From: Clostridia bacterium
GTDB taxonomy: Bacteria > Bacillota > Clostridia > TANB77 > CAG-508
Direction of reading: 5' to 3'
Assembly (NCBI GenBank): GCA_017404545.1
Contig: JAFRCC010000006.1
Coordinates: forward strand, 8-64,007
Length of the DNA stretch: 64,000 nucleotides
In this document: piece by piece, positions 14,342 through 54,247 of the stretch
Layout of the letters: every line of letters begins with the position of its first letter
Numbering within the stretch: position 1 is the stretch's first letter
Made by a program: the position numbers and the translations under genes
Notes under the pieces: model-generated
Database searches by the model: none
Told to the model about the DNA's origin: nothing
What the model saw: only the letters and a program-made list of their open reading frames with translations

Positions 14342-14377
14342 TACATATATGTAACCCCGCTAAATCTATAATTAACG
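14342..14377 (+). promoter_or_regulatory. promoter-like bipartite element TACATATATGTA-N12-CTATAATTAACG
   Basis: Same architecture and spacing as the elements at 53433-53468 and 54212-54247. ATG of the next gene 20 nt downstream. Confidence 0.5.
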
Positions 14378-14396
14378 ACTTATGGAGATGTAAATT

Positions 14397-14873
14397 ATGA
14401 TTCTAGTAAAAAGCGAAATTGAAAACATGAACGTGACTGTAGAAATCGATGAAAACGGAGACCACCACAAATGGAGCGGTTGTCCTTCTATTAACTGTGA
14501 AGGAAACTCTTATCTTTTTGAGTCCTGTGATGTTTTAGCTGTAGTTAAAGCGGTTAAAACCTCCGAAACTGTTGAAGAATTTATCGAAAAAGTTTCTGGA
14601 GATAAGACTTGGAAAAAAGAAAGACTTGCAGAACCAATTATTAAAGCAATTAACAAAAGAGAAGTTGATAAAGTGAAATCCGAAGTAATTAAAGTGTTAG
14701 ATTACAGCTTTACCGACGACAACAAAGAATTATTCGAGTTCAACTCTGAAGATAACGACTGCTTAGACTGTTGCTTAAAACACTACGCTAACGCTTATGA
14801 TGGTAGATTTGATAAACTTGACGAATGCGAACAAATTAGATACTTAGTGCAATCAGCTTTAGCTGATTGCTAA
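14397..14873 (+). CDS. hypothetical Cys-rich protein
   Basis: ORF with RBS GGAGATG. Confidence 0.45.
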   Translation: MILVKSEIENMNVTVEIDENGDHHKWSGCPSINCEGNSYLFESCDVLAVVKAVKTSETVEEFIEKVSGDKTWKKERLAEPIIKAINKREVDKVKSEVIKVLDYSFTDDNKELFEFNSEDNDCLDCCLKHYANAYDGRFDKLDECEQIRYLVQSALADC

Positions 14874-14895
14874 ATTCTTTTATTATGGTGATATT

Positions 14896-15117
14896 ATGTA
14901 CGTTAAAGATTTAAAACAACTCTTGGCTAAATGTGATGAGAACGACGAAATTACTTTCATCTTTGATGAAAGCGAAAGCGTTTCATGGGATAGAGGCAAC
15001 GGCTTGAAAGAAGCAACTCAAGTTAATGTTACCGGCTACAAAATTAACGGTAAAATTGCATTAACCAATGGATTTAGCGCTAAATTGCTTAAAGGAGATG
15101 AAGCTCCTATATTTTAA
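14896..15117 (+). CDS. hypothetical protein
   Basis: ORF with RBS GGTGAT. Confidence 0.4.
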   Translation: MYVKDLKQLLAKCDENDEITFIFDESESVSWDRGNGLKEATQVNVTGYKINGKIALTNGFSAKLLKGDEAPIF

Positions 15118-15378
15118 ATTTTTTAAAAAAGTGGTGATATTATGTTTATCAGTGAAATAGATGTTGTTAAAGAATTTATAGGTGAATACGGGGTTGATTT
15201 AACTTTAGGTGAATTGTTAGAAACCTTAGAGGAAAATGCTGAAATGAACGGGTGGATTGTATGTTAAATGATTTAGTAGTCTACGATATTGATTTATCTG
15301 AAGAGGAATATGGGCTTTTGTTAGAAGATGAAGAATTATGTGAGGAATTTTACGAGGAATTGTTAGAATTGTATTTAG

Positions 15379-15675
15379 GTGATTAAAATGAGTTATTTAG
15401 ATTGGAATACTGAATGTAATGTAATAGATATGCTTAATCGTGAAGCTTATTATGCTTTCAACAGAACTATCGGTTTTAGAGATTCTGAAGTTGTAGATTA
15501 TGAAAGCGACGAAATAATCGAATGCTTTGAGCTAAATTTCATCAATAAGAGCAAAAACATGGAAATCGTCGAGTATTTGAAAAACAAAATGGGTGAATTT
15601 GGTTTGAGTTTCTACAGATTAGATAAAGGAACTTGGCTAGGTGAAGTGCAATACAAACTATACTTCACTAAATAA
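15379..15675 (+). CDS. hypothetical protein
   Basis: ORF with RBS AGGTGAT. Confidence 0.4.
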   Translation: MIKMSYLDWNTECNVIDMLNREAYYAFNRTIGFRDSEVVDYESDEIIECFELNFINKSKNMEIVEYLKNKMGEFGLSFYRLDKGTWLGEVQYKLYFTK

Positions 15676-15703
15676 ATTTATTTTTACGGATAGGTGATTT
15701 AAA

Positions 15704-15931
15704 ATGGTAAGACGTTATTTGAAAACAATTTTGAAAGAACAGAACATCGACTTTGAAGAGGACGAGAACAGCTTTATTATATATTGCGAAGGAAATGAAG
15801 CCAAATTCATGAAGATGTTTGATATAGTGAGTAAACGCATAGAAAATTGGACTTATTATTTGGAACTTCCTTTAAACATCAAAATCGACACTACAACTGA
15901 AAAGATTGTAATAGAGTATTGGGAGGCTTAA
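15704..15931 (+). CDS. hypothetical protein
   Basis: ORF with RBS AGGTGAT. Confidence 0.4.
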   Translation: MVRRYLKTILKEQNIDFEEDENSFIIYCEGNEAKFMKMFDIVSKRIENWTYYLELPLNIKIDTTTEKIVIEYWEA

Positions 15932-16242
15932 AAATGGTTTGGAGAGGAGATATTGAAAAACACTACGAAAATGTTGATAAAACCTACGCTGTCCTCGACC
16001 TCATAGATAATGATCAGATAACAGCAAAAAATGAGTTACGTGAGGTAATCCGTAGAGAACTACAATTATCATGTGAGTGCATCATCGATTGGCTAGATGA
16101 CTCCAATAATGAAAATTCCCGTAAATCCAAAAGATACCTCGAGAGTCTAGAACTAGGATATGATATTTGCGTAGTCCTCGAGGTTAGAACTTTTATTTAT
16201 CAATTACTCGATAAATCATTCTCTGATTTGATTAATTCCTAA
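15919..16242 (+). CDS. hypothetical protein
   Basis: ORF. Confidence 0.4.
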   Translation: MGGLKMVWRGDIEKHYENVDKTYAVLDLIDNDQITAKNELREVIRRELQLSCECIIDWLDDSNNENSRKSKRYLESLELGYDICVVLEVRTFIYQLLDKSFSDLINS

Positions 16243-16537
16243 GATTACTATTTTTTTTCAATGAATTTTACTTTAGAACTATTTTTAATTTTCCGATTAC
16301 ATAACAAATGCTCTCTCGGAAAAAGCGTATATTTTATATTTGTACTAATATACAACTAGGAGTCACATATTTCAGTTCGACTTTTTTTTATTTGTGAAAA
16401 GTTGGTTTTATTGGTGATGGTTGAGAACCTGAAAATGTGACTTCTTACTCTATTTTTAAATTTAGAACGTGCAGATTTTGTTTTATGTTAATAAAAAATC
16501 AAAATTATCCTTTTAAGAAAAATCCGAATAGGATATA

Positions 16538-16945
16538 TTAATATTTGCTATTTATTTTATAAATATCGAATTCTTCAAATATTAATCCAAAAGGCATATT
16601 TAAAAAAATACACCTAGCGCAATTTTCATTAATAAATTCATAAAAGATGGAAGTAATTCTTTTATCTAATCCCCAATCATTTATTCTAGTTGTAAATTTA
16701 TCATCAATTAAATATTTGATAATAAAACTATCTTTTTTAAAATTAATCTGAAATTGAAAGACTTCCCCGTTATATACTAATTCATAATCAATTGTTTTAG
16801 TAACGTAATTATTTTTTAATTCTAATTCAATGAGTTGTTCTAATACTTCATCAAAAGTACAATTTTGCTTTTCTTTGATTTGTTTTAATATATTATAAGT
16901 TTTTATCGGAACTGTAGTGTTGGTTTGATTTATAGGGTTAGGCAT
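16538..16945 (-). CDS. hypothetical protein, downstream partner of a small RHH gene
   Basis: ORF on the minus strand directly abutting a 43-aa RHH-like ORF. Confidence 0.4.
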   Translation of the reverse strand: MPNPINQTNTTVPIKTYNILKQIKEKQNCTFDEVLEQLIELELKNNYVTKTIDYELVYNGEVFQFQINFKKDSFIIKYLIDDKFTTRINDWGLDKRITSIFYEFINENCARCIFLNMPFGLIFEEFDIYKINSKY

Positions 16946-17077
16946 TCATAACAACTCTTTATAATAGGTTTCGGTTAATCGAGTAATTACTTCAGAAATA
17001 GTTTCACTATTATTTATTTTGCATTGCTCTAATTTGTTTTTTGTATTTTTTTTGAAAACTATTGTTTTTCTATTCAT
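16946..17077 (-). CDS. small ribbon-helix-helix-like protein (43 aa; possible antitoxin or regulator)
   Basis: MNRKTIVFKKNTKNKLEQCKINNSETISEVITRLTETYYKELL: beta-strand then two short helices. No gap before the 16538-16945 gene. Confidence 0.35.
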   Translation of the reverse strand: MNRKTIVFKKNTKNKLEQCKINNSETISEVITRLTETYYKELL

Positions 17078-17215
17078 ATTTTATAGATTTATTCTTTCAA
17101 GTTTTTAAATTATCGTTTTGTATAATTCAATAATAAGATTAATCCAACTCATTAACGAAATAAGGCGCTAAGTAATTATTAACCTTCAATAAGGTTGTTG
17201 TTTAATCTTCAGTTG

Positions 17216-18307
17216 TTAATTTTCCATTAAACTTTCTTTTTCGGAGATATAATTTGAATAAATTTGTTTTTGAATATGTTTTTTATATTTAGTTAATTGT
17301 TCTATCTCTAAATTTATCATATATTGTTCCATATACTCATAATCTGGTTCGCCTTTATTGTCAGTAGGAACTAATATTATTTGTTCTCTCATTCTTTTAG
17401 CATTAAATTTATATCCATACATATATTTTACTTTTTGTTTCAGAATTATGGTTTTAAAGAATAATAACACGTGTTTATTGTCAGCATAGTTTTTTAAGTG
17501 AAATCTTTTTACATCATCGCTGAATAAGCAAGTATAAGGATGATAAAAGTTTTCTACTACGCTTCCATTATAATTAACACCTAATACATTTTTATCAATT
17601 GAATTATTGGAATTACTAACGTAATTAGTAATTCCATTGTTTAAATATGTTGCACCAATAAATGGAGTTGAGCCTGGGCTCATATTTGCTTTAGTTAATC
17701 TTTTTCCAGATGAAATTTTAAATAAATCTCGGATATAAAACTGACTCCAATTTTTATTCTCTAATGGTTCTAAGTCCTTATAAGTTAATTTATTTATTTT
17801 TTGATTTAAGTATTCTAAGTATTTATTTAACTTTTCTTGTTCTAAATTTAACATATAATTTCTCATTAAGTCCCAATCAGGATATCCATCGCTTAAAATA
17901 GGTAATTGGATTGTAAGTTCTTCAAATCTAGTTTTTGTTAATCCATACCCGTGGTTGAATATCCCATGATATTTGTTCAGAAGAGATACTATGAAAATCA
18001 TATGGTATTTTGTTAATTCTATAATTGGTCTTAAAACAAAAACGGTACTTTTATTTGCAAAAACTGTGGGCTGATAATAGGATAATCCAGCTCCCCCATC
18101 TCCTTGTTTATTCCAAGTAATAGCATGTTTATCATTAAGTTTTTCAATATTTACAAAAGCATCTACTCCGTTTTTCATCTTTTTTGCAGATATTAGTGGA
18201 TAAGCTCCTTCAGGTAAGTTTTGTGAATCGGAAATATCATTTTCAGTTTCTAATGAAAATATATCAGATACTTTAAAAGTTCCCCAATCTTTATTATAAA
18301 TGTCCAT
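17216..18307 (-). CDS. hsdS: type I restriction-modification specificity subunit (two target-recognition domains)
   Basis: 363 aa with duplicated halves and conserved coiled-coil spacers (LEQEKLNKYLEYLNQKI; LEIEQLTKYKKHIQKQI). Immediately downstream of hsdM. Confidence 0.7.
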   Translation of the reverse strand: MDIYNKDWGTFKVSDIFSLETENDISDSQNLPEGAYPLISAKKMKNGVDAFVNIEKLNDKHAITWNKQGDGGAGLSYYQPTVFANKSTVFVLRPIIELTKYHMIFIVSLLNKYHGIFNHGYGLTKTRFEELTIQLPILSDGYPDWDLMRNYMLNLEQEKLNKYLEYLNQKINKLTYKDLEPLENKNWSQFYIRDLFKISSGKRLTKANMSPGSTPFIGATYLNNGITNYVSNSNNSIDKNVLGVNYNGSVVENFYHPYTCLFSDDVKRFHLKNYADNKHVLLFFKTIILKQKVKYMYGYKFNAKRMREQIILVPTDNKGEPDYEYMEQYMINLEIEQLTKYKKHIQKQIYSNYISEKESLMEN

Positions 18308-20197
18308 TTAATCATCCTCAAAAAGATACTCTTTTCCATGAGATATGAAATCAAATTCAAAGGTTAAATAATCAGCCATTACATTTTCTAATTCATTTTT
18401 ACTAGGAATTTCATCATTAAAATAATAATAAGAGTGTAACCATTCATCATCATCTTTAACTGTTGATTTGACCATAAATTTGCTTTCAGCGTCTTTTTCA
18501 TCTCTCCAACATTGCAATAAATGTTTTCTTCTTTCAGCAACCCTATCGGTTTCGACAATTCCAGTATGCTTTTTCAATCTGTATCCGTCATCTTTAAAAT
18601 TAATAAATTTGCTTCGTTTTTCTGGGGGGTGAGGATTATGAGCTGTGAAAATTGCTATAACTGGATTTACTCCCCGCCTACGAAATACATGTTTTGGATT
18701 GAGAGTAATAACTCCTTCTAAAGTATGCTCTTTCAAAATTTGTTTTTTAATTTCTTTATCATCATCATTTGTCCCGACCATTACTGATTGAGGAACTATA
18801 ACTGCACATTTACCATTATCTCCTAAAGAATCCAGCAATCGTTTGATAAAATTTATTTCAGACGTATCTTGAGAATATGGAGGGTTCATCAAACCAACAG
18901 TATAATTTTCTTTTTTCAAATCATCAACTTCACATCTAAAGAAATCTCTTAATTTAAGATTACTTTTACCATCTCCTCTTAAAATCATATTTGTTGTTGC
19001 TATGGTAAATAAATGAGGTCTTAATTCAATACCGTGTAAATTATTTAATTTTATATTTCTTTTTTCGCCCTCATCTGTTGTCTGAGATATCATTTTATTC
19101 ATTCCAGCAATTAAAAAACTTCCCGTACCACAACAAGGGTCAAATATTTTGTCTGTTGGTTTAATTTCTAATAATTCACAAAATAATTCAGTAATATGTT
19201 TGGGAGTCAATACAATTCCTAATGAACTACCGTCAACTCCACTATATTTAATAAATTCGGTGTAAAAATATCCTAAAATATCGACATTAACGGTAGTTAT
19301 CGATGGGAAAATTTTATTTCTTATAAATTCTGCGAAATATTTGAGGGGTGTTTTTTTTAAGGTTGGGTCTATTGTATTTAATGTTTCATCATCTTTTATT
19401 AATGTAAATTGGTTTAATATGATTTCTTCTTTATCTCCAACTTCACTACTTTGAAGGTTGTCTTTCATTGCTTCGTAGATTTTTTTTCCATCAGTTCCAC
19501 CTTTACGTTTTCCTTTTAAATCATCTAAATTTAAACCTTCATTTAGTGCTAATAATATTGCAGAAACTACTAATGGTTTTTGAGTATCACCTAATTGACC
19601 ATAGTTTCTTAAATGTTTGTTTAATTCTTTTGATTTTTTTATAACTAGTTCTAATTCCAATTCTTTTTGAGAAGGCTCCCCTAATACTTCTTCTTTATAA
19701 TAATCGTTAATATTATCCTCATTAAAATTTTCAAAATCATCTACTTCTTCCAATAATTTATAAGAATTTTCATCAACAAAGATGGGTCTTATAGTAAAAT
19801 TTTCAGTTCCACTACAACCAAAAGCAAAAGCTTTTTTATAAGAGGATTTTTTAAGAATATGGTTTGCGTAGTGCAAAGCTCCATTTTCTGCATAATTTTT
19901 AATAGCATTTTCACTAGATAAATCTAAATTCTTCTGATTATCGTCGAGGTAAAGGGCTTGTTTTGAGGATTCTCTTTTATCTTCGATGACTATTACAAAT
20001 TCTCCAACTAATCCTATAAATTCAGGAAACCCTTTGTTTTCTCCGGGATTACTTTCGATATTTTTTGTCGCTCCGTTTAATGCTTCATCAATTTCAGGAT
20101 TGCTACTTATTTGTTCATCATATTCTATATCAGCGTCCTTTAATAATCCTCGCACTATATCATCAGTCTTTCTCTCACTAACCATTTTCCCACTCAA
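18308..20197 (-). CDS. hsdM: type I N6-adenine DNA methyltransferase subunit, N-terminally extended
   Basis: Motif I DPCCGTGSFL and motif IV LMNPPYS. 629 aa. Confidence 0.8.
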   Translation of the reverse strand: MSGKMVSERKTDDIVRGLLKDADIEYDEQISSNPEIDEALNGATKNIESNPGENKGFPEFIGLVGEFVIVIEDKRESSKQALYLDDNQKNLDLSSENAIKNYAENGALHYANHILKKSSYKKAFAFGCSGTENFTIRPIFVDENSYKLLEEVDDFENFNEDNINDYYKEEVLGEPSQKELELELVIKKSKELNKHLRNYGQLGDTQKPLVVSAILLALNEGLNLDDLKGKRKGGTDGKKIYEAMKDNLQSSEVGDKEEIILNQFTLIKDDETLNTIDPTLKKTPLKYFAEFIRNKIFPSITTVNVDILGYFYTEFIKYSGVDGSSLGIVLTPKHITELFCELLEIKPTDKIFDPCCGTGSFLIAGMNKMISQTTDEGEKRNIKLNNLHGIELRPHLFTIATTNMILRGDGKSNLKLRDFFRCEVDDLKKENYTVGLMNPPYSQDTSEINFIKRLLDSLGDNGKCAVIVPQSVMVGTNDDDKEIKKQILKEHTLEGVITLNPKHVFRRRGVNPVIAIFTAHNPHPPEKRSKFINFKDDGYRLKKHTGIVETDRVAERRKHLLQCWRDEKDAESKFMVKSTVKDDDEWLHSYYYFNDEIPSKNELENVMADYLTFEFDFISHGKEYLFEDD

Positions 20198-20628
20198 AAT
20201 AATAATTCCTTGAGTAAATTTTTATTTATACTATTATTTATAGATGTTTAAAAAGAGATTATATGCATTTAATATTTAATTAAACTAATTTTAAGAGATT
20301 AATATTCAAAATTAATGATTATTAAAGCTTATTTAAAAAATAATTCTAGTATATAAATTTAGGTTTTATGTAAATTAGTTCTTATTTTCAATTATATATA
20401 GTATAATTCCCTAATATTGTATTGGAAACTAAATTTTATAGTTTTCAAACGGAAAATAAGTCAGCAAAACCTAATAGATATTTGTTCAAGTTTTAACCCT
20501 AGTAACTTTATAATTCTTGACTTATTTTCCTTTATTCCTTCCGTTCCTTTTTTTAGTGCCGATGAAATGAATAACGAGTCGGTGAAATTATGAGTATTAA
20601 GATTATTTTTAAGTGAGGTGTCTATTGT

Positions 20629-21426: not shown

Positions 21427-21481
21427 AATATCTAATAAGAATACCTTCACCAAATCGAGATGATTTTTATTATAGTTTTTT

Positions 21482-21751
21482 ATGAAGAGGATTGAAGTTA
21501 AAATGTCTAATAAACCTTATTCAAATCTAATCTGTCCGAATTGTGAAAATAAGGGAGATTATGAGCTAGATGATAATGAGGAAATAGTTTGTATTCATTG
21601 CGGACTAGTTATCAAATCTCCATATCCCTATTCAGCAGGTATTAGGTTTAAGACATTAACGGAGATTCTAGACGATAAAAGAAATGAAAGAAAAGAAAAT
21701 AAACGTTGGAGGAGAGAGAATGAGCGACGTAAAAAGTTTCAAAAAATATAG
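21482..21751 (+). CDS. zinc-ribbon protein
   Basis: CPNCEN...CIHCG four-Cys ribbon; basic C-terminus. Confidence 0.45.
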   Translation: MKRIEVKMSNKPYSNLICPNCENKGDYELDDNEEIVCIHCGLVIKSPYPYSAGIRFKTLTEILDDKRNERKENKRWRRENERRKKFQKI

Positions 21752-21953
21752 TTGGTTAATAAGTGCAATATTTGCAGTAATTGTTTTAATTAGCGGTTTA
21801 ACTGCTAATGATATCAGTTTTTTACCGGTAGAACTTCAAGCAAAAGCCGTCGGAGTTATAGGTGCTTGCGCTTTGATTGTAAAAATTTTACCTGAAAATT
21901 ATAGAGTTTATATTGCCGAAAATCTCGTAAGAAACGAATATGAAGGAGAATGA
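21720..21953 (+). CDS. small membrane protein (start at the internal ATG behind GGAGAGAGA)
   Basis: Hydrophobic ORF. Confidence 0.4.
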   Translation: MSDVKSFKKYSWLISAIFAVIVLISGLTANDISFLPVELQAKAVGVIGACALIVKILPENYRVYIAENLVRNEYEGE

Positions 21954-22521: not shown

Positions 22522-22536
22522 AGGAGGCTTCAAATT

Positions 22537-24395: not shown

Positions 24396-24418
24396 AAATT
24401 GAGGGAGGTGAGTATACT

Positions 24419-31756: not shown

Positions 31757-31786
31757 ACTTACAAATTATTTGAAGAGCTGATAAAT

Positions 31787-33184
31787 ATGTCTGTAGAAGT
31801 TGTAACAAAAGAGACAATTGATAAAAATTTGCCATTTATTTTAAAATGGTCTAAAAATCCTAAAACTAACGGAGGCGCTATCAATCCGGGTTGGAAACAA
31901 CAAACTGAAATTGATAGGTTCCTTGAATTAGTTGAAAATACTCCTAGTATATTAAACGATGCTAGATTTATCCAAATGGAAAGTATAGAACACGATATTT
32001 CATACTTACGTGTTAAAGCTAGATTGCAATCAATGAAAAAACTTAGCGGTGATAATAAAGGTGCTCCTTTACAAAAAGAATATACTACTGATTTAGACGA
32101 AGTTGTACCTGAATTTAGCCGTTCTAAACTCGAAGCTGAACCATTTTCAATATTCACTTACACTAGTAAATTGTTCTTAAAAACTAATATTGAAAAAGAG
32201 TCCTTTTTACCACACATGGAAGCAATCTTAGCTGAAAGAGCCGGTTATTCTGCCGAAAATATTGGTATGTACGGTATTAAAAACGACAATACAACCAGTA
32301 CCGACGGAATACATCAAATTAACGGTGTTTTCAAACAATTACAAGACATCGCAAGTACCTACGAAACCAACGTAGCAATCGACCGTAAAGCTCCGATGGG
32401 TTATTTCAAAGACATCGACGCCTCAAAAGATTTAGTAAAACAAATCAAAAGAATGATTACTCAATTTACTAAACAAAGAGGTAAAAGGTCTAAAGCTAAA
32501 ATCTACGTTTCTACTGAATTAGAAGGTCTTTTAATTGAAGAAGCAGACCAAAGACCAACCGAACGTGGAGATAACCTTTATTTCGATGATAACGGACAAT
32601 TAACCTTATGGGGCGTTCCTATTGCTCAAGCTGATTTCTTAGACGAACCCGACAACGGATTTGATGAACAAATCTTAATGGCTGACCCAGATTCTATTGT
32701 ATTTGGTTTCTTAAATGAAATTGAATCTGAAAACGATTATGAGTTATCCGCAAAAGCTTACTTGTCTACTGTGGACGTCTACTTCGATGTATTAATCTTG
32801 TATAATAAAGACGTTCTCGCTGCTAGAATCATTAATATTCCTTCCGCAGTTATAGACGATGAGGAAACTGAAGAAGAAAATACTTCTTCTCAAACCTCAA
32901 CTCAAGAAGATACATCTTCCCAAACTTCTAATGAAATAGAAACTCCAACAACCCGTAACATTAATTTTGTAATTAATGACGGAACTGACGCAATACAAGG
33001 CGCTACTGTAACTATCGGTGAGATAACTGGTACTACTGGTAGTCAAGGCGGTTGTACATTACAAGGAGTAAGCGATGGTGAAAATTCCGTAACTGTTGAA
33101 GCTGAAGGTTATACTACCAAAACTGAAACTATCACTGTTTCCGAGTCTGATACTTCATTTACCATCAGTTTAGTGAGTGCATAA
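31787..33184 (+). CDS. major capsid protein with C-terminal Ser/Thr linker and Ig-like domain
   Basis: Position after protease/scaffold. Start carries GAGCTGATAAATATG. C-terminal Big-like segment (GATVTIGEITGTTGSQGGCTLQGVSDGENSVTVEAEGYTTKTETITV). Confidence 0.55.
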   Translation: MSVEVVTKETIDKNLPFILKWSKNPKTNGGAINPGWKQQTEIDRFLELVENTPSILNDARFIQMESIEHDISYLRVKARLQSMKKLSGDNKGAPLQKEYTTDLDEVVPEFSRSKLEAEPFSIFTYTSKLFLKTNIEKESFLPHMEAILAERAGYSAENIGMYGIKNDNTTSTDGIHQINGVFKQLQDIASTYETNVAIDRKAPMGYFKDIDASKDLVKQIKRMITQFTKQRGKRSKAKIYVSTELEGLLIEEADQRPTERGDNLYFDDNGQLTLWGVPIAQADFLDEPDNGFDEQILMADPDSIVFGFLNEIESENDYELSAKAYLSTVDVYFDVLILYNKDVLAARIINIPSAVIDDEETEEENTSSQTSTQEDTSSQTSNEIETPTTRNINFVINDGTDAIQGATVTIGEITGTTGSQGGCTLQGVSDGENSVTVEAEGYTTKTETITVSESDTSFTISLVSA

Positions 33185-46530: not shown

Positions 46531-46538
46531 ATAGAAAA

Positions 46539-48122: not shown

Positions 48123-48126
48123 ATAA

Positions 48127-50799
48127 ATGAGTAAAAGAACCTTAGCTGATGAAATGATAACTTTAATTCAAAGTGAATCAAATAACAATCCCGCTCCTAA
48201 ACCCTGCAAAATAGTTGGCAATTATGGAACTAATCCTTATTGCGACGTAGAAGTTGAAGATTTAGGTAAATTAATCCATAAAAAAACAATAGGCAGTACA
48301 GAAATAGGTTCAGAAGGTATTATTTGCTTTTTAAACGGAGATTTAAATCAAGGAATTGTAATAACTCACGATGAAACAGCTCCAATAATTGAATGGTTTA
48401 ATCAAAATAATATAATCGATTTATTGTACTATCTCGAAAATTACGGTAAAAAGTCAGATAAATCCTATTATTTGTTTAGAGGTGATTGTTGGACTATTAA
48501 CAATAATTTCGAATCTAGCGCCTCAATTACTAGTAAAACCGACAAGGATTTTACCGTTACTGGAACATTCCGAACTAGAAATGATATTGTAGGTATTTAT
48601 TGGAACTCGGAAGATGTTATTCAACACCCGTATATCAGTTATGGTTCTATAACTGATTATTCTGACGTAATCTTAGAGTTTGATTATGAAATGAGCGGTT
48701 GTAAAGATTTTTCTAATGGAGTTATAAGTATTACTGTCGGAATGAATGACGGTTCAACATATTATATGACTATGAACCGTTTTATTGAAGATAATCATGT
48801 TACTCTTGATTTTAATAATCTTACTTTACTAGCTGGAAATGTTTATATTGATTCTGAAGGTGAGGAAATAGAGATTACAGAAACAACTCCCTTAGACGTA
48901 ACTGATGTAAAATATATTATGTTTGTTATAGTTCCTTCTAACTATGTAGAAAACAAAGAACAATATACAATTATTAGAAATACGGACTTTACTTGTAAGA
49001 TAAGCAATATTGAAGTTACTAATGGTGAAATTTGTAAAGAGTATATACCGTTAGACCCTCAAGAATATCGATTGTGTGAAGGTTATGACGATTTTTATGA
49101 TTTGAACCCTTATAGAGTTTGTAGGGAAATGAGGAAACTAGGATATGTAAATTGGATTGATTTATATATCGGCGCCTCTCATTTTTACGAAAAAAGCGGG
49201 ACTGTTGGAGATTTAATAACTATATCTGAAACTTTGAATCATACTCAAACAGAAAAAATGGTTTTAAATCAAAAAGTACCCTTGAATAGAGCTTTTACTA
49301 CTTGGTTGGATTGTTATTCTCGTGAATTAAAAGCTAACGGTAGTGATAAGCTTGTTGTTAGTGTATCTATGGAGAATTTGCAGTGCCCTACTAGTTGGAG
49401 ACAAAAAGCCTGTAATGGAAATTACGCTTTAACCGGTTGGGTTCCCTCTACTTTCTTTTATAGTCCTTGTAATCCGGAAGTATTGTCTTATATGCAGTCC
49501 GTTAGTGAAGCTTGTCTTGATATAGTTGTAGCTAATGATTTACAACCTATTCTTCAGATGGGTGAGGCTTGGTGGTGGTGGAATGAAAACGATAAACCTA
49601 ATCAACCGCCTTGTTTTTATGACGATTCTACTAGAAACAGTTATTATAAAGAGTTCGGTGAGAATATTCCGGAATATTCGTCATCTTGGGAAAATTACGA
49701 TAATAAACTCACTTCTTGGCTCAATAAACAATTAGTTAAATATAGTGATGGGTTAAGAGAGGTTGTAAAAGATTCTAAGTATAAAAACGGCTTGTATATG
49801 GCTTTATTTTTCCCTCCTTCCGTTACTGATGTTGATAGGGTTCCGGCTATGATGAGAGAGGTTAATTTTTTGAAAGATGCTTATACTCCTTTGAAATTAG
49901 ATGTTTTACAGCTAGAAGATTATGATTGGGTTACTGGCGAGAGCGTACATCATGATGAAGTCTACTCGTTAGGTCAAGAATTAGGATTTAGTGAGGATAG
50001 ATTACATTATTTTGGAGGTTTTGTTCAGTATCCTGAAGATGCGCCTAAGTTTTGGAATTTAATCTCTAAATCAATGGAAACTGCAATAAATAAGAAATTT
50101 AAAGAAGTCTTTGTTTGGGCGGGTTCTCAAGTAAGACGGGACGGAAAATTCATAGGTCATTACGCTTATGAGCTAATACAAAGATTGTTAGATAAAATTC
50201 CGGACGTTAAAGCTTATGATGATTCTGATTTGGTTTCTAGAATAACTAGTGCTGAAGGACAAATTACTACGATGGGAGGGCGAGTTTCTACTTTAAATGG
50301 AGAATTAACTACTCTAGACGGCAAAGTAACTACTTTAGAAGGTCAAGTATCAACTTTAGATGGAGAACTGACTACTTTGGAGGGTCAAGTTTCTACTTTA
50401 GATGGTGAAGTAACAACCTTAGAAGGTCAAATAACACCAATAGTTGATAGTGGGTGGGTTAATTTGAGTTTAACCGGTAATTTTTACAATTTTGATTCTA
50501 CTAATAGTGTAAAATACCGTAAATATGGAAGTGAGGTTCAAATTACTGGACTTCCAGTGTTAAATGCCTATCCTTCTGCGCTAACTGAATTAATCATTGG
50601 AACGTTGCCTAGTGGTTTTAGACCAATCCGTGACGTATCTTTTGTTTGTGAGTTAAAAGACGATGATAAGCTGTGGACTTGTACCGTAAAGTCTAACGGA
50701 GAGGTTACTTTCAACCGTTTGAGAGATAATACTGGTTTTGTTGCCGGAACTGCTTTTGCAGACGTTTTAAAATTAAATGTTAATTTCTTAATTGACTAA
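48127..50799 (+). CDS. large tail fiber protein with trimeric coiled-coil stalk and C-terminal receptor-binding-like head
   Basis: 890 aa containing seven TLxGxxT heptads and a central Trp-rich region (GEAWWWWNEND). Confidence 0.55.
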   Translation: MSKRTLADEMITLIQSESNNNPAPKPCKIVGNYGTNPYCDVEVEDLGKLIHKKTIGSTEIGSEGIICFLNGDLNQGIVITHDETAPIIEWFNQNNIIDLLYYLENYGKKSDKSYYLFRGDCWTINNNFESSASITSKTDKDFTVTGTFRTRNDIVGIYWNSEDVIQHPYISYGSITDYSDVILEFDYEMSGCKDFSNGVISITVGMNDGSTYYMTMNRFIEDNHVTLDFNNLTLLAGNVYIDSEGEEIEITETTPLDVTDVKYIMFVIVPSNYVENKEQYTIIRNTDFTCKISNIEVTNGEICKEYIPLDPQEYRLCEGYDDFYDLNPYRVCREMRKLGYVNWIDLYIGASHFYEKSGTVGDLITISETLNHTQTEKMVLNQKVPLNRAFTTWLDCYSRELKANGSDKLVVSVSMENLQCPTSWRQKACNGNYALTGWVPSTFFYSPCNPEVLSYMQSVSEACLDIVVANDLQPILQMGEAWWWWNENDKPNQPPCFYDDSTRNSYYKEFGENIPEYSSSWENYDNKLTSWLNKQLVKYSDGLREVVKDSKYKNGLYMALFFPPSVTDVDRVPAMMREVNFLKDAYTPLKLDVLQLEDYDWVTGESVHHDEVYSLGQELGFSEDRLHYFGGFVQYPEDAPKFWNLISKSMETAINKKFKEVFVWAGSQVRRDGKFIGHYAYELIQRLLDKIPDVKAYDDSDLVSRITSAEGQITTMGGRVSTLNGELTTLDGKVTTLEGQVSTLDGELTTLEGQVSTLDGEVTTLEGQITPIVDSGWVNLSLTGNFYNFDSTNSVKYRKYGSEVQITGLPVLNAYPSALTELIIGTLPSGFRPIRDVSFVCELKDDDKLWTCTVKSNGEVTFNRLRDNTGFVAGTAFADVLKLNVNFLID
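50284..50430 (+). repeat. 7 x 21-bp tandem repeat inside the tail fiber gene, encoding the heptad stalk
   Basis: gtttctactttaaatggagaa / ttaactactctagacggcaaa / gtaactactttagaaggtcaa ... read directly. Confidence 0.8.
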
Positions 50800-50813
50800 A
50801 AGAGCTGATAAAT

Positions 50814-51800
50814 ATGATAAAGAAAAGCGAAATTAAGCTAATTGCTGAAAAAATCAAAGAATATGTAGAAAAAAATAAGGAAATACCCAATTCAATAGAA
50901 GTAAATAAGAAAAAATACTCAAAAACCGAGTGTTTATACATTTTAGGATATGCTATTGATCATCTAAATGAAAATTTTGATTTTAAAAGCGGTAAAGTAG
51001 CAAGTAATCCTGTAATTACTGTCATTAATGAAGATATTTATGAGTCTGATTATAAAGACCAATCTAAAAGATTATGCCAATATTTAAATCAAAACGGTAA
51101 AGCTCCGAATTACATTAAATCAGTTAAATCCTCAACTAAGATTTCGCCGGATTTGGAGTTGTACGCTTTTGCTAAAATAATCGATTATTATTACAAAAAT
51201 AAAAGATTGCCTAATTATTGCAATTATAATTCTAGCGTATTGGCTAGCGTTAAGTCCAGTAAAAACAATTGCAGTAATCCTTATAAATCATCTCCTCACC
51301 CTACTAAAAAGGGTTGCGATGCTATGGGTCAAAATACTGGTTATTTTTGTGCAATTTGTGCACTGCAACATTCTTTATTCAAATTCGGTATCTACGTTTC
51401 TCAAAGCCAATTAGCAAAATGGGCGGGGACAACTAGCTCCGGAACTTCTCATCAAGGAATCCGTACTGCCGTTGCAATGGTAAACAGTAAATATCACGTT
51501 AATATTTCCGTAGATGAGAAAAACTTCAGTGATTTAGGTTTAGAAGGGTTGGCAAAACTTATCTGTAAAAGTAACGTTGATGTGATAATTCATTTGTTAT
51601 ATCGTCTTAAATACGGTCATTATGAGTCAATTAACGAAATTGACGTGAAAAATAAGATGTTTAAGATTTTAAACTCACTTGGAAACAAATGCTCTGGTGG
51701 TTGCTATTGCGGTTACGTTGAGGATAGATCATTAGCTGTAGAAAAATCATATATCGGTGGAATTAGTCAGAAATCCATCATTATTTTAACTAAAAATTAG
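50814..51800 (+). CDS. pei: pseudomurein endoisopeptidase (Pei-like lysin) with two N-terminal pseudomurein-binding repeats
   Basis: Two PMBR-like repeats (IKLIAEKIKEYVEKNKEIPNSIEVNKKKYSKTECLYILGYAI; LCQYLNQNGKAPNYIKS...LELYAFAKIIDYYYKNKRLPNYCNY). C-terminal Cys/His peptidase-like domain (GYFCAICALQHS...HLLYRLKYGHYESIN). Start in GAGCTGATAAATATG. Confidence 0.75.
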   Translation: MIKKSEIKLIAEKIKEYVEKNKEIPNSIEVNKKKYSKTECLYILGYAIDHLNENFDFKSGKVASNPVITVINEDIYESDYKDQSKRLCQYLNQNGKAPNYIKSVKSSTKISPDLELYAFAKIIDYYYKNKRLPNYCNYNSSVLASVKSSKNNCSNPYKSSPHPTKKGCDAMGQNTGYFCAICALQHSLFKFGIYVSQSQLAKWAGTTSSGTSHQGIRTAVAMVNSKYHVNISVDEKNFSDLGLEGLAKLICKSNVDVIIHLLYRLKYGHYESINEIDVKNKMFKILNSLGNKCSGGCYCGYVEDRSLAVEKSYIGGISQKSIIILTKN

Positions 51801-51808
51801 GTGAAAAT

Positions 51809-51997
51809 ATGAACGTTATTGTTAAAAAAATACATGAAATCCATTTAGATTATCAACAAAGGCAAGTTTCTAAGTTGTATAAGTCAGAAGGATTAACAAA
51901 AAGAGTCTTAAATAAGCAAAGAAAGATTAATGAAAAAAGAAATGAGCTAGATTTACCTGATAGGTATGAGAGGCAATATAAAAGGTTTGTACAATGA
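51809..51997 (+). CDS. hypothetical basic protein
   Basis: ORF with RBS AGGTGAAAATATG. Confidence 0.35.
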   Translation: MNVIVKKIHEIHLDYQQRQVSKLYKSEGLTKRVLNKQRKINEKRNELDLPDRYERQYKRFVQ

Positions 51998-52278
51998 ATA
52001 TTTTAGTTTTGATTAAAGAATTAGATTCTACGCCTTTAGATAGGGAAATAAGAAACGGAGGAGGTCATGGTGATATAATTAGTTTCTATAATGAAACTGG
52101 TAATGACTATGATTTAATCATAGAGGGTGTTGAATATTCAAGAGTAGTTCAGGCATGTGTTATTTTTAAAGACCGTTCTTATTATCTCTACATTCAACAC
52201 GGTGAAAATCCTAACTTAATTAAGTTAGATGTAGATAGTATAGAAGAAATTAATTGTATTCCGTCATTAGTTGAATAA
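51994..52278 (+). CDS. hypothetical protein
   Basis: ORF. Confidence 0.35.
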   Translation: MNILVLIKELDSTPLDREIRNGGGHGDIISFYNETGNDYDLIIEGVEYSRVVQACVIFKDRSYYLYIQHGENPNLIKLDVDSIEEINCIPSLVE

Positions 52279-52369
52279 CTCCCTCCCGTATTTTTGAATA
52301 AAAATATTTAAAATGTATAAAAACAAATTTATACCCATATTGCTATCAAAATATGCGCGAGGGTCAATT

Positions 52370-53242
52370 ATGAAAAACACTAAAAAGCTGATATTGCTAT
52401 TAGTATTGTCTATTTTTCTTGTGGGTATGTTGATGGGGTCAGCAACAGCAACTCATACAGTTAAAGTAGGTAAATATACTGGAACAATATCGGATAATGA
52501 TTATAAAAAATTACAAAATGCTAAAAGTAAAAATAAGGATTGTTCCGTTCTTAATGTTAAATCTAATAATAAAGGATATAGTATGGCAATTTACTATAAC
52601 ACCTTTTCGGGTTATGAGCCAATGTCCGGAATTACATTTGAAAAAGGATTTTTGGGTAGTGTATGGAAAAACGGTGAAGAATCTCCGATAATTGCTTATA
52701 AAAAAGCCACTATATCATCTAAAACCACAACAAATACTAAAAAAAATACTGTTTACACAAAACCACATACTTACAATCTGGGAGGATATAAAGTAACAGT
52801 TTCAGCTAAACAATATACTCAATTGAAGAAACATAAGAATACAAATACTTTATATATTGCTTATAAGAATATTGGCAATAAAAATGTTAAAGTTCCTAAG
52901 TATAAGACTGTGAAAAAGAAAGTATGGGAGACTAAATTAGTATTGGATGAAAAATTAGTTTATAGTTCCGATTGGTCTGATTCTACTTGGTATGAATATC
53001 ATGCTGATAGATACAGTAAAGCCGGTTGGAAATATTATGGAAGTAAAACTGTAGAATCCAATAATGGCCATGTTATTAAATATTATCAGAAATATAAAAA
53101 ACAAGTAACTAAAAACGTTAAAGTTAAAAATGGTTATAAAACGGTTAAAGTTCCAATTAAAGCTGAAATTTGGTCTAATGGAATGTATAAATTATATGAT
53201 AAGAACGGATATTTCTATAAATCCGGTAAAGTAAATATTTAA
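52370..53242 (+). CDS. secreted Lys/Tyr-rich protein (start at ATG 52370; the ORF track extends it to 52313)
   Basis: Signal/TM helix MKNTKKLILLLVLSIFLVGMLMGSATA. C-terminus K/Y-rich like 4439-5728 and 55374-56384. Confidence 0.5.
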   Translation: MKNTKKLILLLVLSIFLVGMLMGSATATHTVKVGKYTGTISDNDYKKLQNAKSKNKDCSVLNVKSNNKGYSMAIYYNTFSGYEPMSGITFEKGFLGSVWKNGEESPIIAYKKATISSKTTTNTKKNTVYTKPHTYNLGGYKVTVSAKQYTQLKKHKNTNTLYIAYKNIGNKNVKVPKYKTVKKKVWETKLVLDEKLVYSSDWSDSTWYEYHADRYSKAGWKYYGSKTVESNNGHVIKYYQKYKKQVTKNVKVKNGYKTVKVPIKAEIWSNGMYKLYDKNGYFYKSGKVNI

Positions 53243-53278
53243 ACCAATAGCTAAGCTATTGGTCTTTTTTTGTTTTTT
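53243..53278 (+). terminator. perfect hairpin ACCAATAGCT-A-AGCTATTGGT followed by TCTTTTTTTGTTTTTTG
   Basis: Read directly; begins at the stop codon of the upstream gene. Confidence 0.7.
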
Positions 53279-53432
53279 GTCTAATTTTTTCAAGTGTATG
53301 AAATAGTTTATTTTAACTTTTTTTCTATTGATTATTTTCATTAATTAATTTAACTAATTGTTCTCTGATTAAATACTGCTTAACTAACTCACTTATTTTT
53401 TTTATTAAATTTAAGCATTTACAACGTCGTAA

Positions 53433-53468
53433 TACATATATGTACTAGAGTTCTATCTATAACTATCG
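53433..53468 (+). promoter_or_regulatory. promoter-like bipartite element TACATATATGTA-N12-CTATAACTATCG, followed by a small hairpin CGGA-TTACG-TCCG
   Basis: Identical architecture at 14342-14377 and 54212-54247. Confidence 0.5.
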
Positions 53469-53543
53469 GATTACGTCCGGTGAGAACTTGAATTTATTTA
53501 TAACTTCAAGTGAACTGTTAAAAATGATGGAGAATTGATTTAA

Positions 53544-53708
53544 ATGATTGACGTATATGTAAAAAACTATAACGAAACTTTTGCTATAATCATCGACGGA
53601 GTAATTGTTGATTTTACTACTGTTTATGATGAAGTTGAAAATTTAATCTTAGAAGTTTGTGATGAATTAGGAATTGATACTTGGGATATTAACGTTCAAG
53701 AAAATTAA
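53544..53708 (+). CDS. small hypothetical protein (54 aa)
   Basis: ORF MIDVYVKNYNETFAIIIDGVIVDF... downstream of the promoter-like element. Confidence 0.3.
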   Translation: MIDVYVKNYNETFAIIIDGVIVDFTTVYDEVENLILEVCDELGIDTWDINVQEN

Positions 53709-53726
53709 GAATAACGAGCTGATAAT

Positions 53727-54116
53727 ATGAACAGAGCTGAATACTTAACTGAATTAATGAAAAGAGATGTGGAATCTATTGTAACTGCTGAAGAAGATGT
53801 TAAAGATATGGAGTTAAAATTAATCGTAGAGCTTAAAAAAGCTGAAGAAAAATGTGATGCTTATGAGGAAATGTACGAAGATGACGAAGGACTTATAATG
53901 TCTGCTTATACTGAATACGAAAGAGTTAGAAGTCCTATAACTCAATTAGAGTCTTTAGTTCAAGACTTCAAAATTAGCTTAATCGACCACTACGAACAAT
54001 TGTTAATAGAAAAAAGAGCCTATAATGAGGAAATCCGCAAAGCTTTGGCTACTGCTAAATATAATGTCGTTAAAATGGACGAAACTGTAGAAATTATTAA
54101 AGGTGTTTTAATCTAA
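53727..54116 (+). CDS. hypothetical acidic protein
   Basis: ATG in the 14-nt variant motif GAGCTGATAATATG. Confidence 0.45.
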   Translation: MNRAEYLTELMKRDVESIVTAEEDVKDMELKLIVELKKAEEKCDAYEEMYEDDEGLIMSAYTEYERVRSPITQLESLVQDFKISLIDHYEQLLIEKRAYNEEIRKALATAKYNVVKMDETVEIIKGVLI

Positions 54117-54211
54117 ACACCTATTATTTTTTTTCAATAAAATCCGTTGAATTATTGTAAAACCTCACCAAATATTATGATTTTAAAATTCAATCATTTA
54201 CGTTGGAGTAA

Positions 54212-54247
54212 TACATATATGTAGCGCTGTCCTAACTATAACTATCG
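54212..54247 (+). promoter_or_regulatory. promoter-like bipartite element TACATATATGTA-N12-CTATAACTATCG, followed by a hairpin CGAGA-N9-TCTCG
   Basis: Third copy of the conserved element. Confidence 0.5.

What the first reader, a model, noticed from the sequence alone, without database searches (positions are those of the whole stretch)
14342..54247. Bipartite promoter-like element TACATATATGTA-N12-CTATAAYTAWCG with fixed spacing, three copies ahead of accessory genes
A 12-bp perfect palindrome (TATA-like core CATATATG) is followed exactly 12 nt later by a conserved box, at 14342-14377, 53433-53468 and 54212-54247. The geometry would put a TSS inside the second box if the palindrome acts as the TATA element. 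The two right-hand copies are each followed by a short hairpin and sit ahead of small moron genes beyond the lysin. The palindromic symmetry suggests a dimeric regulator site overlapping the promoter.
Basis: seen in the sequence. Interest (0 to 1): 0.6.

Follow-up and report, generated by a model that had tools for sequence, protein, structure and literature searches.

The report
Repeated promoter of a methanogen provirus
The three repeats are most likely copies of one promoter used by a virus integrated in a rumen methane-producing archaeon (Methanobrevibacter) to switch on two or three groups of small genes. This is a real and previously undescribed sequence family, but an ordinary kind of element.

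Summary
ATACATATATGTA-N12-CTATAAYTAWCG occurs three times, on the + strand only, each copy just upstream of a gene. About 0.01 copies of the 13-mer are expected by chance.

The window is a tailed provirus in a Methanobrevibacter chromosome, so archaeal promoter rules apply.

In more than 20 orthologous sites from related proviruses, the same element sits at the same two genome positions with the same 12-nt spacing. There the first box is a canonical archaeal TATA box (cTTTATATRTA). The palindrome occurs only in the window's own lineage.

The second box is nearly invariant. [quoted passage not shown] A 5' stem-loop of variable sequence starts 2 nt after that A.

A profile of the element finds no other copy in about 230 kb of viral and host-flank DNA.

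Verdict: this is a virus-family-specific core promoter cassette that drives conserved small-gene operons. The dimeric-regulator and "moron" readings are not. No transcript data were available, so initiation itself is inferred. It is a new member of a known kind, of modest interest.

The parts
14341..14353 (+). c1 first box ATACATATATGTA. The TATA-equivalent core CATATATG is at 14344-14351.
   Evidence: Exact copy. It aligns column for column with cTTTATATRTA in orthologous promoters of L112, L113, L114 and L116.
14366..14377 (+). c1 second box CTATAATTAACG, read as proximal promoter element plus initiator. The predicted start is A at 14374.
   Evidence: 12-nt spacing is kept in every instance. 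The geometry comes from PMC2699501. The start site itself is inferred.
14397..14873 (+). First gene of the c1 operon (158 aa, unknown fold). GGAG at 14384-14387 is the likely ribosome-binding site.
   Evidence: 49 homologues of 49-88% identity, all in the same synteny after the ERCC4 nuclease gene. AlphaFold model pLDDT 88, with no PDB match.
53396..53403 (+). Run of eight T upstream of c2, a likely archaeal terminator that ends the lysis-module transcript.
   Evidence: Read from the sequence. Oligo-T as an archaeal terminator signal is established knowledge.
53416..53422 (+). c2 distal box CATTTAC. Its TTTA starts 17 nt upstream of the TATA core.
   Evidence: TTTA at this distance is invariant in 13 of 13 instances. 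CATTTACAAAA is present in most relatives.
53432..53444 (+). c2 first box ATACATATATGTA. The TATA-equivalent core is at 53435-53442.
53457..53468 (+). c2 second box CTATAACTATCG. The predicted start is A at 53465.
53465..53511 (+). c2 leader with two hairpins, at 53465-53481 and 53486-53511, ahead of genes 53544-53708 (54 aa) and 53727-54116 (129 aa).
   Evidence: RNA fold. The first stem starts at the C of box 2, as in all relatives.
54127..54134 (+). Run of eight T after the 129-aa gene and upstream of c3.
   Evidence: Read from the sequence.
54195..54201 (+). c3 distal box CATTTAC.
54211..54223 (+). c3 first box ATACATATATGTA. The core is at 54214-54221.
54236..54247 (+). c3 second box CTATAACTATCG. 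The predicted start is A at 54244.
54246..54264 (+). c3 5' hairpin CGAGA-N9-TCTCG.
   Evidence: The stems at the same position in relatives carry compensating changes: CGAGT/ACTCG in L129 and CGAGGT/ACCTCG in L121.
54290..55280 (+). c3 operon: a 104-aa gene, a 78-aa gene and a 142/145-aa gene. The last has a weak RHH-like N-terminus.
   Evidence: In L129 the homologous genes follow the 129-aa gene with no promoter between them.

Best explanation
Each copy is most likely a core promoter read by the host's archaeal transcription machinery, and it belongs to one promoter family specific to this group of Methanobrevibacter tailed proviruses.

Proposed mechanism:
- TBP binds the first box. Its core CATATATG matches the methanogen consensus TWTATATA at 6 of 8 positions, and relatives have TTTATATR in the same place.
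- TFB and RNA polymerase then open the AT-rich CTATAAY segment of the second box, the proximal promoter element at about -8 to -2.
[quoted passage not shown] In the window these are positions 14374, 53465 and 54244.
- The transcript begins 2 nt before a stem-loop whose sequence varies between lineages but whose position does not. A Shine-Dalgarno-like GAGYTGAT or GGAG and the start codon follow.

The cassette drives the operon of small genes after the replication module (c1) and the operon of small genes after the lysis module at the right end of the provirus (c2). In the window's lineage a duplicated copy together with a terminator (c3) was inserted into the right-end operon and split it in two.

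Shown: the repeat, its orthology, the fixed spacing, TATA equivalence, the flanking terminators, the leaders, and the restriction to 2-3 sites per genome.

Inferred: that transcription starts there, the exact start nucleotide, and the roles of the distal box and the stem-loop.
For: 1. The host is a methanogen, so TATA/BRE rules apply.
- Pseudomurein-binding repeats in the lysin.
- MCM and ERCC4 genes.
- Homologues named Methanobrevibacter by their sources.
- The nearest isolates by terminase are PhiF3, psiM100 and psiM2.

2. Orthologous sites carry the same bipartite element with 12-nt spacing, and the first box there is a canonical TATA box. These sites lie upstream of the 158-aa gene (L110, L112-L116) and at the head of the operon containing the 129-aa gene (L119-L125, L129, L132-L141).

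3. The invariant columns are TATAT in box 1, and TATAA, TA and C in box 2.

4. The geometry fits M. jannaschii mapped promoters: TATA 3' edge to start site 23 +/- 2 nt in 94% of cases, a proximal element at -11 to -2 that is 86% A+T, T at -1 and a purine at +1 (PMC2699501).

5. c2 and c3 each follow a T8 run, and all copies point at a gene 19-100 nt downstream.

6. Leaders in relatives fold into stem-loops that start at nucleotide 3-4 of the predicted transcript. Free energies are -12 to -30 kcal/mol and z-scores -2.0 to -5.5. There are four unrelated stem sequences at the same position. This is expected only if the start site lies upstream of the C at box-2 position 11.

7. An nhmmer profile of 13 instances scores only the known sites (36-45 bits). 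The next best hit is 7.5 bits in about 230 kb that includes host flanks.
Against: - No transcript 5' ends were available, and no Methanobrevibacter start-site map was found in the literature search. Initiation is therefore inferred.
- The BRE is not convincing in the window copies. A canonical AAAnn upstream of the TATA box appears only in some relatives (L112, L116, L119).
- Box 2 is far more conserved than an ordinary proximal element plus initiator, which carries about 3 bits in M. jannaschii. That suggests an additional reader which this explanation does not name.
- Box 2 is itself TATA-like. A similar CTATAATTA sits upstream of the RHH gene at 11943 without a TATA box before it.
- The hairpins in the window are individually weak (z-scores -0.1 to -1.3), and c1 has none.
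Confidence: 0.72

Rival explanations
1. Operator overlapping the promoter, an addition to the promoter reading rather than a replacement. The 12-bp palindrome in the window's lineage, and/or the invariant second box, would be the binding site of a virus- or host-encoded regulator. One example would be a lysogeny repressor that competes with TBP or blocks polymerase recruitment, coordinating the 2-3 operons. The lineage-specific palindrome would then mark a change of immunity specificity.
For: - All copies in the window lineage carry the same 13-mer although their spacers differ.
- Relative to L112-type promoters, the four changed bases (ACCTT to ATACA) all increase dyad symmetry with the pre-existing right half ATATGTA.
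- Box 2 and a distal TTTA are conserved well beyond what basal factors usually require.
- The element is restricted to 2-3 sites per genome, which looks like a small regulon.
- The right-end operon encodes a protein with a weak RHH-like N-terminus.
- Archaeal viruses are known to carry virus-specific promoter elements (PMC1635249).
Against: - The palindrome is absent from most family members, which have an ordinary TATA box there.
- L110 has already lost the outer palindrome pair: its first box reads AAACATATATGTA.
- TATA boxes are intrinsically near-palindromic.
- No regulator gene is specific to the palindrome lineage in the early region.
- The RHH gene at 12039 has its own palindromic repeats at 11969-11988 and is missing from L110.
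- The RHH-like strand of the 142-aa protein does not co-vary with the type of box 1.
- Its Pfam hit is below threshold, and neither structure model matched a DNA-binding fold.
Confidence: 0.25
2. The second box (TATAAYTA) is the real TATA box, or a second tandem one. Transcription would then start about 20 nt after it, which for c1 would be leaderless at the ATG. The first box would be an upstream activator site or the TATA box of a separate upstream promoter.
For: - Box 2 matches TWTATATA at 6 of 8 positions.
- In c1, and in L110, the ATG lies exactly 19 nt after box 2, about where a start site driven by box 2 would fall.
- A similar CTATAATTA precedes the RHH gene at 11943 without an upstream TATA box.
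Against: - Relatives have a perfect TTTATATA at box 1, and some have the classic AAAnn before it.
- A start site 20 nt after box 2 would fall inside the 5' arm of the long stem-loops, or after the short ones. That would leave their position-specific conservation and compensating changes unexplained.
- The distance from box 2 to the start codon ranges from 19 to 100 nt.
- GGAG upstream of the c1 ATG would not be transcribed.
Confidence: 0.1
3. A DNA-level site unrelated to transcription, such as a recombination or cassette-boundary site, a replication origin or a packaging signal, repeated in the provirus.
For: - c3 marks an insertion relative to L129.
- Repeated conserved modules can act as recombination points between mosaic viruses.
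- c1 lies next to the replication module.
Against: - The element is strictly directional.
- It always lies 19-100 nt upstream of a co-oriented gene with a ribosome-binding site, and it follows terminators.
- The first box is a canonical TATA box in relatives, and the geometry matches archaeal promoters.
- No integrase or terminase association was seen.
- Only 2-3 copies occur per genome.
Confidence: 0.03

Closest known systems
Canonical methanogen core promoter: BRE, TATA box TWTATATA, proximal promoter element and initiator, as mapped in Methanocaldococcus jannaschii (PMC2699501)
   Same: - A TATA-type first box.
- An AT-rich segment at about -8 to -2.
[quoted passage not shown]
- Position just upstream of genes and after oligo-T runs.
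   Different: - The second box is almost invariant over 11-12 nt, whereas the proximal element plus initiator in M. jannaschii carries only about 3 bits.
- The BRE is weak in the window copies.
- There is an extra distal box, CATTTACAAAA, 17 nt upstream of the TATA box.
- In the window lineage the outer positions of the TATA box have changed to give a 12-bp palindrome.
Virus-specific promoter consensus elements of the Sulfolobus rudiviruses SIRV1/2, with the host activator Sta1 (PMC1635249)
   Same: An archaeal virus that uses the host TBP, TFB and RNA polymerase, with promoters carrying an extra conserved element shared among viral promoters in addition to the TATA box and BRE.
   Different: - Different host phylum, virus type and element sequence and position.
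- Here only 2-3 promoters per genome carry the element.
- No binding factor has been identified.
Lysogeny-regulator operators that overlap early promoters in temperate viruses, such as F55 of SSV1 or CI/Cro operators of lambdoid phages (from general knowledge, not tested here)
   Same: A repeated short sequence overlapping the TATA box and start site of a few co-regulated viral promoters, with lineage-specific sequence variants.
   Different: - No repressor has been identified.
- Dyad symmetry is not conserved across the family.
- The repeat is explained at least as well by basal promoter elements.
Phage moron cassettes (promoter, gene and terminator inserted between conserved genes)
   Same: c3 is an autonomous terminator-plus-promoter unit lying between conserved genes near the prophage end.
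   Different: The genes behind c1 and c2 are conserved and syntenic across the virus family. At c3 the downstream gene already exists in L129 without its own promoter, so the promoter was the inserted part, not the gene.

Membership tests
Archaeal core promoter (TATA/BRE/PPE/Inr) | TATA box matching the consensus for the group (TWTATATA in methanogens) | tested here: met
   The window core CATATATG matches at 6 of 8 positions. Orthologous sites carry TTTATATR (7-8 of 8) in the same columns. Consensus from PMC2699501.
Archaeal core promoter (TATA/BRE/PPE/Inr) | [quoted passage not shown] | tested here: met
   CTATAAY followed by T-A lies 23 nt from the core's 3' edge in all instances, and the spacing is invariant. 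Reference values. Met by sequence only.
Archaeal core promoter (TATA/BRE/PPE/Inr) | BRE (purine or A-rich) immediately upstream of the TATA box | tested here: inconclusive
   The window has GTAATA or CATATA there. A classic AAAnn is seen only in L112, L116 and L119.
Archaeal core promoter (TATA/BRE/PPE/Inr) | Located upstream of, and co-oriented with, a transcription unit, typically after a terminator | tested here: met
   All copies lie 19-100 nt upstream of a gene with a ribosome-binding site. c2, c3 and most relatives follow T-runs.
Archaeal core promoter (TATA/BRE/PPE/Inr) | Transcription actually initiates there | not testable with these tools
   No transcriptome was accessible, and no Methanobrevibacter start-site map was found.
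Operator of a dimeric (RHH/wHTH) regulator | Dyad symmetry conserved among orthologous sites | tested here: not met
   The palindrome occurs only in the window, L129 and (as 10 bp) L110. All other orthologues have an asymmetric cTTTATATRTA or TTTATATACT.
Operator of a dimeric (RHH/wHTH) regulator | A cognate regulator gene that co-occurs or co-varies with the site | tested here: not met
   No early-region gene is specific to the palindrome lineage. The N-terminal strand of the 142-aa RHH-like protein is the same in both clades. Only part of each relative genome could be fetched.
Operator of a dimeric (RHH/wHTH) regulator | Protein binding to the site | not testable with these tools
   Needs EMSA or footprinting.
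Moron (recently acquired promoter-gene-terminator cassette) | The downstream gene is a lineage-specific insertion absent from related viruses | tested here: not met
   The 158-aa gene has 49 homologous clusters and the 129-aa gene 130, all syntenic. The 104-aa gene has a 69%-identical homologue in L129 without its own promoter.
Bacterial sigma-70 promoter | -35 TTGACA-like and -10 TATAAT-like hexamers 16-18 bp apart, in a bacterial host | tested here: not met
   The host is an archaeon. The hexamers 16-18 bp upstream of TATAAY read ACATAT, CATATA or ATATAT.
Known RNA family (Rfam) for the leader | Match to a curated covariance model | tested here: not met
   No Rfam hit at E <= 1 in five loci that carry the leaders.

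The most novel reading that the evidence does not exclude
The cassette may be more than a basal promoter: a dedicated regulatory unit of this provirus family. In this reading, the near-invariant second box, the distal CATTTACAAAA box and, in the window lineage, the palindromic TATA variant are read by a virus-encoded or virus-recruited factor. Candidates are a lysogeny or immunity repressor, or an initiation co-factor such as the small TFIIB-type zinc-ribbon protein or the RHH-like 142-aa protein. The stem-loop placed 2 nt after the start site would then act in cis on the nascent transcript, through stability, pausing or anti-termination. That would resemble the promoter-proximal nut and put sites that follow the two early promoters of lambdoid phages.
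Probability: 0.2. Interest if true: 0.6.

Novelty: new member of a known kind. Interest (0 to 1): 0.3.

Why it matters
No promoter of a Methanobrevibacter virus has been described, and transcription signals of this gut and rumen methanogen genus are poorly mapped.

This is a compact, strongly conserved cassette of about 70 nt: terminator, distal box, TATA box, proximal element with initiator, 5' stem-loop and ribosome-binding site. It would be a ready-made expression part for a genus that lacks genetic tools.

It also offers a marker of co-regulated viral operons and a clean substrate for asking three questions: what reads the start-site-proximal region in Methanobacteriales, how a TATA box can drift into a palindrome, and whether archaeal viruses use promoter-proximal RNA structures.

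If it is only a strong basal promoter, the finding is routine annotation.

Tried and rejected
- **Sigma-70 reading.** Rejected: the host is archaeal and there is no -35 hexamer.
- **IMG/VR.** The DNA-pattern scan gave 8 chance hits. Searches with the 309-aa protein downstream of the lysin, the ERCC4 protein and the 158-aa family alignment found no relatives.
- **GTDB representative genomes.** 89 scattered hits against about 87 expected from 596 Gb x 2 strands x 5 spacings / 4^18, none in Methanobrevibacter.
- **JGI metagenomes.** Only one useful locus, L116.
- **Megablast of the structural module against phage records.** No match.
- **Rfam on the leader-bearing loci.** No hit.
- **Function of the regulated genes.**
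  - Pfam gave nothing above threshold.
  - The AlphaFold models of the 158-aa protein (pLDDT 88) and the 142-aa protein (pLDDT 83) have no significant PDB fold match.
- **A regulator specific to the palindrome lineage.** None found by tblastn of window genes against L110, L112, L113 and L114. There was also no co-variation in the RHH-like strand.
- **A separate 13-kb integrative element carrying c1.** The idea came from direct repeats at 3099 and 16295. It is not supported, because relatives keep integrase-to-structural synteny and there is no third repeat near the right end. The repeats remain unexplained.
- **CATTTAC as a wider regulon mark.** Rejected: the other occurrences are chance matches inside genes.
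- **Literature.** The MSTV1 paper concerns a different virus family and gives no promoter data. No paper on Methanobrevibacter start sites or provirus promoters was found.
- **Formal column-wise covariation of the inner hairpin.** Not possible, because MAFFT registers shift between lineages. The argument rests on per-sequence folds.

Full report
**Observation**

The three copies are exactly as described. The conserved first box is 13 nt, ATACATATATGTA, at 14341, 53432 and 54211. It is followed after exactly 12 nt by CTATAAYTAWCG.

No other site in the 64-kb window comes within one mismatch of the 13-mer as a separate locus. The only 1-mismatch hits are the minus-strand readings of the same three palindromes. 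The composition-based expectation is 0.013 per strand.

All copies are on the + strand. Between c2 and c3 the two boxes are 25/25 identical, the surrounding 50 nt are 62% identical, and the spacer shares 5 of 12 positions. c1 shares nothing with the other two outside the boxes. The boxes are therefore constrained and are not merely young duplicates.

**Context**

The window is a tailed provirus in an archaeal chromosome. Its gene order is:
- integrase (3178-4290), MCM helicase and ERCC4 nuclease;
- a type I restriction-modification pair on the minus strand;
- terminase, portal, sheath-like protein and tape measure;
- a pseudomurein-binding-repeat/peptidase lysin at 50814-51800;
- small genes, and then host genes such as adenine deaminase.

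Homologues of its proteins are labelled Methanobrevibacter by their sources. The nearest isolated viruses by terminase are Methanobacterium and Methanothermobacter viruses PhiF3, psiM100 and psiM2, at 35-39% identity. G+C content is about 30%. Archaeal promoter rules therefore apply, not bacterial ones.

c1 lies between the ERCC4 gene and a 158-aa gene. c2 lies 190 nt after the 309-aa gene that follows the lysis genes, behind runs of T. c3 lies after the 129-aa gene, behind a T8 run.

**Relatives**

Identical copies of the virus occur in rumen-type metagenome assemblies, and the motif is identical in them.

More distant relatives were reached through the 158-aa protein (49 clusters, 49-88% identity) and the 129-aa protein (130 clusters). 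Their contigs are syntenic with the window from the integrase to the right end. The window is therefore one provirus family, not two elements.

The same bipartite element is present at both orthologous places, with the 12-nt spacing unchanged in every instance. The first box differs between lineages:
- In L112, L113, L114, L116, L119, L120, L121, L123 and L132-L141 it reads cTTTATATGTA, TTTATATATA or TTTATATACT. This is a canonical archaeal TATA box, occupying exactly the columns of CATATATG.
- Only the window, L129 (86% identity at the 129-aa protein) and L110 (83% at the 158-aa protein; AAACATATATGTA) carry the palindromic form.

The second box is YTATAAnTAAC(T/G) everywhere. The invariant columns over 13 non-identical instances are:
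- TATAT in box 1;
- TATAA, TA and C in box 2;
- a G in the spacer (12 of 13);
- a distal TTTA 17 nt upstream of the TATA box, usually within CATTTACAAAA.

A more degraded copy, in a non-viral context in L126-L128, keeps a TATA box and the spacing but has a diverged second box.

**Geometry**

In the 134 mapped protein-gene promoters of M. jannaschii (PMC2699501):
- the TATA consensus is TWTATATA;
- the proximal promoter element spans -11 to -2 and is 86% A+T;
- position -1 prefers T and position +1 is A or G.

Applying this here, T-A at box-2 positions 8-9 lies 23 nt from the core's 3' edge, and CTATAAY occupies -8 to -2. The predicted starts are 14374, 53465 and 54244.

**Leaders**

Downstream of box 2 the relatives carry leaders that fold into strong stem-loops. 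Free energies are -12 to -30 kcal/mol, and z-scores are -2.0 to -5.5 against shuffles.

Every stem begins at the invariant C of box 2 (position 11), which is nucleotide 3 of the predicted transcript. The stem sequences fall into unrelated classes:
- CUGUCUUUAAAUCGGA...UCUGAUUUAGAAACAG in L112-L120;
- CUGUAUUUAGA...UCUAAAUAACAG in L123 and L132-type loci;
- CGAGGU/ACCUCG in L121;
- CGAGU/ACUCG in L129;
- CGAGA/UCUCG in c3;
- CGGA/UCCG in c2.

The inner hairpins differ in every lineage while still pairing.

A structure kept in position but not in sequence, directly after box 2, is what one expects if the RNA starts within box 2. It argues against a start about 20 nt further downstream, which would apply if box 2 were the TATA box. 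No Rfam family matches. c1 in the window and in L110 has no hairpin, only a 19-nt stretch containing GGAG before the ATG.

**Specificity**

An nhmmer profile built from 13 instances scores only the known sites, at 36-45 bits. The next best match is 7.5 bits, in about 230 kb of window and relative loci that include host flanks. Each virus therefore has one copy in the early region and one at the right end, or two there in the window.

Other intergenic regions of the provirus, such as the one upstream of the thymidylate-kinase-like gene, carry different conserved elements.

A scan of 185,579 species-representative genomes for the palindromic version returned 89 scattered hits in unrelated taxa. 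About 87 are expected by chance, and none was in Methanobrevibacter. The element is not a ubiquitous host sequence.

**The genes served**

The 158-aa, 129-aa and 142-aa genes are conserved, syntenic members of the virus family. Their functions are unknown:
- Pfam gives nothing above threshold.
- Confident AlphaFold models find no PDB fold match.
- The 142-aa protein has only a sub-threshold RHH-like N-terminus.

They are not morons. In L129 a 97-aa homologue (69% identity) of the window's 104-aa gene follows the 129-aa gene after 48 nt, with no promoter between them. c3, together with its terminator, is therefore a lineage-specific duplication of the c2 promoter (75% identity over 75 nt, D10) that split the operon.

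**The palindrome**

Relative to L112-type promoters the window's first box differs at four adjacent positions (ACCTT to ATACA). All four changes mirror the pre-existing right half ATATGTA, and every copy in this lineage carries the change. That is suggestive of a symmetric reader.

The evidence against is stronger:
- The symmetry is absent from most of the family.
- TATA boxes are near-palindromic by nature, and the central ATATAT is unchanged.
- L110 has already lost the outer pair of the palindrome.
- No gene in the early region is specific to the palindrome lineage.
- The RHH-like gene at 12039 has its own palindromic repeats at 11969-11988 and, together with the window's MCM, is a module absent from L110.
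- The N-terminal strand of the 142-aa protein is the same in both clades.

I rate a regulator site overlapping the promoter as possible (about 0.25) but unsupported.

**Comparison with known systems**

The element works like, and by sequence criteria qualifies as, an archaeal core promoter: TATA box, proximal element and initiator. Its unusual features are the near-invariance of the start-site-proximal box, a fixed distal box, and the 5' stem-loop.

The closest precedent for a virus-specific extra promoter element is the SIRV rudiviruses (PMC1635249). Operators of lysogeny regulators that overlap early promoters are a functional analogy only. No publication on promoters of Methanobrevibacter viruses was found.

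**Verdict**

This is a real, non-random element, best explained as a virus-family-specific promoter cassette. It is a new member of a known kind and of modest interest. What is missing is direct evidence of initiation and identification of whatever reads the second box.

Noticed in passing
window, e.g. 6177-6191, 7413-7427, 9045-9059, 12573-12587, 31775-31789, 50802-50816, 53716-53729, 54278-54292: At least eight genes share the start region GAGCTGATAAATATG (GAGTTGATAAATATG in relatives). It resembles the expected anti-16S sequence GAGGTGAT but always has a pyrimidine at the fourth position (D5/D8/D20).
   Followed up: no
relatives: L112:9498-9560, L113:3944-4005, L114:9898-9960, L119:4733-4795, L123:4783-4832: A stem-loop leader of about 50-60 nt, with a conserved outer stem and a variable inner hairpin, follows both promoter copies in related proviruses (z-scores down to -5.5). 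No Rfam match. It is shortened or absent in the window.
   Followed up: partly
window 11943-11990: Between the MCM gene and an RHH-like (CcdA N-terminal) gene at 12039-12506 lie a 20-bp perfect palindrome, TTACACGGGTACCCGTGTAA (11969-11988), and two more TACACG(G/T)G units, preceded by CTATAATTA. This is probably that regulator's own operator. The MCM plus RHH pair has no tblastn match in relatives, which indicates a module swap.
   Followed up: partly
window 3099-3121 and 16295-16317: The direct repeat GATTACWTAMCAAATGCTCTCTC flanks the integrase-to-c1-operon segment, and a similar TCAAATGCTCTCAC occurs in host DNA of L128. It looks like an att site, but relatives keep synteny across it and no third copy lies near the right end. 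Unexplained.
   Followed up: partly
window 20451-20463 and 20518-20530: The 13-bp inverted repeat GGAAAATAAGTCA / TGACTTATTTTCC, about 55 nt apart, lies upstream of the thymidylate-kinase-like gene that opens the long rightward gene block. It is conserved in L112-L114. It could be a regulatory site or a packaging or origin site.
   Followed up: no
window 640-810 and 1837-2007: Clusters of TTAATCATCAACC iterons (a 171-nt repeat, 85% identical) flank a Fic/DOC-MarR fusion gene at 844-1863 in the left flank, outside the provirus (D3).
   Followed up: no
window 21482-21751: A small (89-aa) protein has a TFIIB-type zinc-ribbon hit just below the Pfam cutoff (26.7 against 29 bits). It is conserved at the same position in relatives. 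A virus-encoded mimic of the TFB N-terminus would be worth examining.
   Followed up: no
window 16538-20197 versus L110, L112, L113 and L114: The segment between the c1 operon and the thymidylate-kinase-like gene is a variable restriction-modification island. The window has a type I HsdS/HsdM pair. Relatives have Tsp45I, DpnII or MjaI-type enzymes with their methylases.
   Followed up: no
window 6250-6905: GGAGTCGCAA(AA)CCATG occurs three times as a ribosome-binding-site-plus-start motif for very small ORFs in the 900-nt region after the Ig-like-domain protein gene.
   Followed up: no
window 53550-53595: Inside the 54-aa ORF there is a degenerate look-alike, GACGTATATGTA-N22-CTATAATCATCG. The spacing is wrong and it lies in coding sequence, so it is probably chance or a relic.
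   Followed up: no
window 50254-50444: Tandem 21-nt (7-aa) repeats lie in the 890-aa gene at 48127-50799, with one related unit in the Ig-like-domain gene at 55458. They probably encode a fibre-like repeat segment (D1/D2).
   Followed up: no
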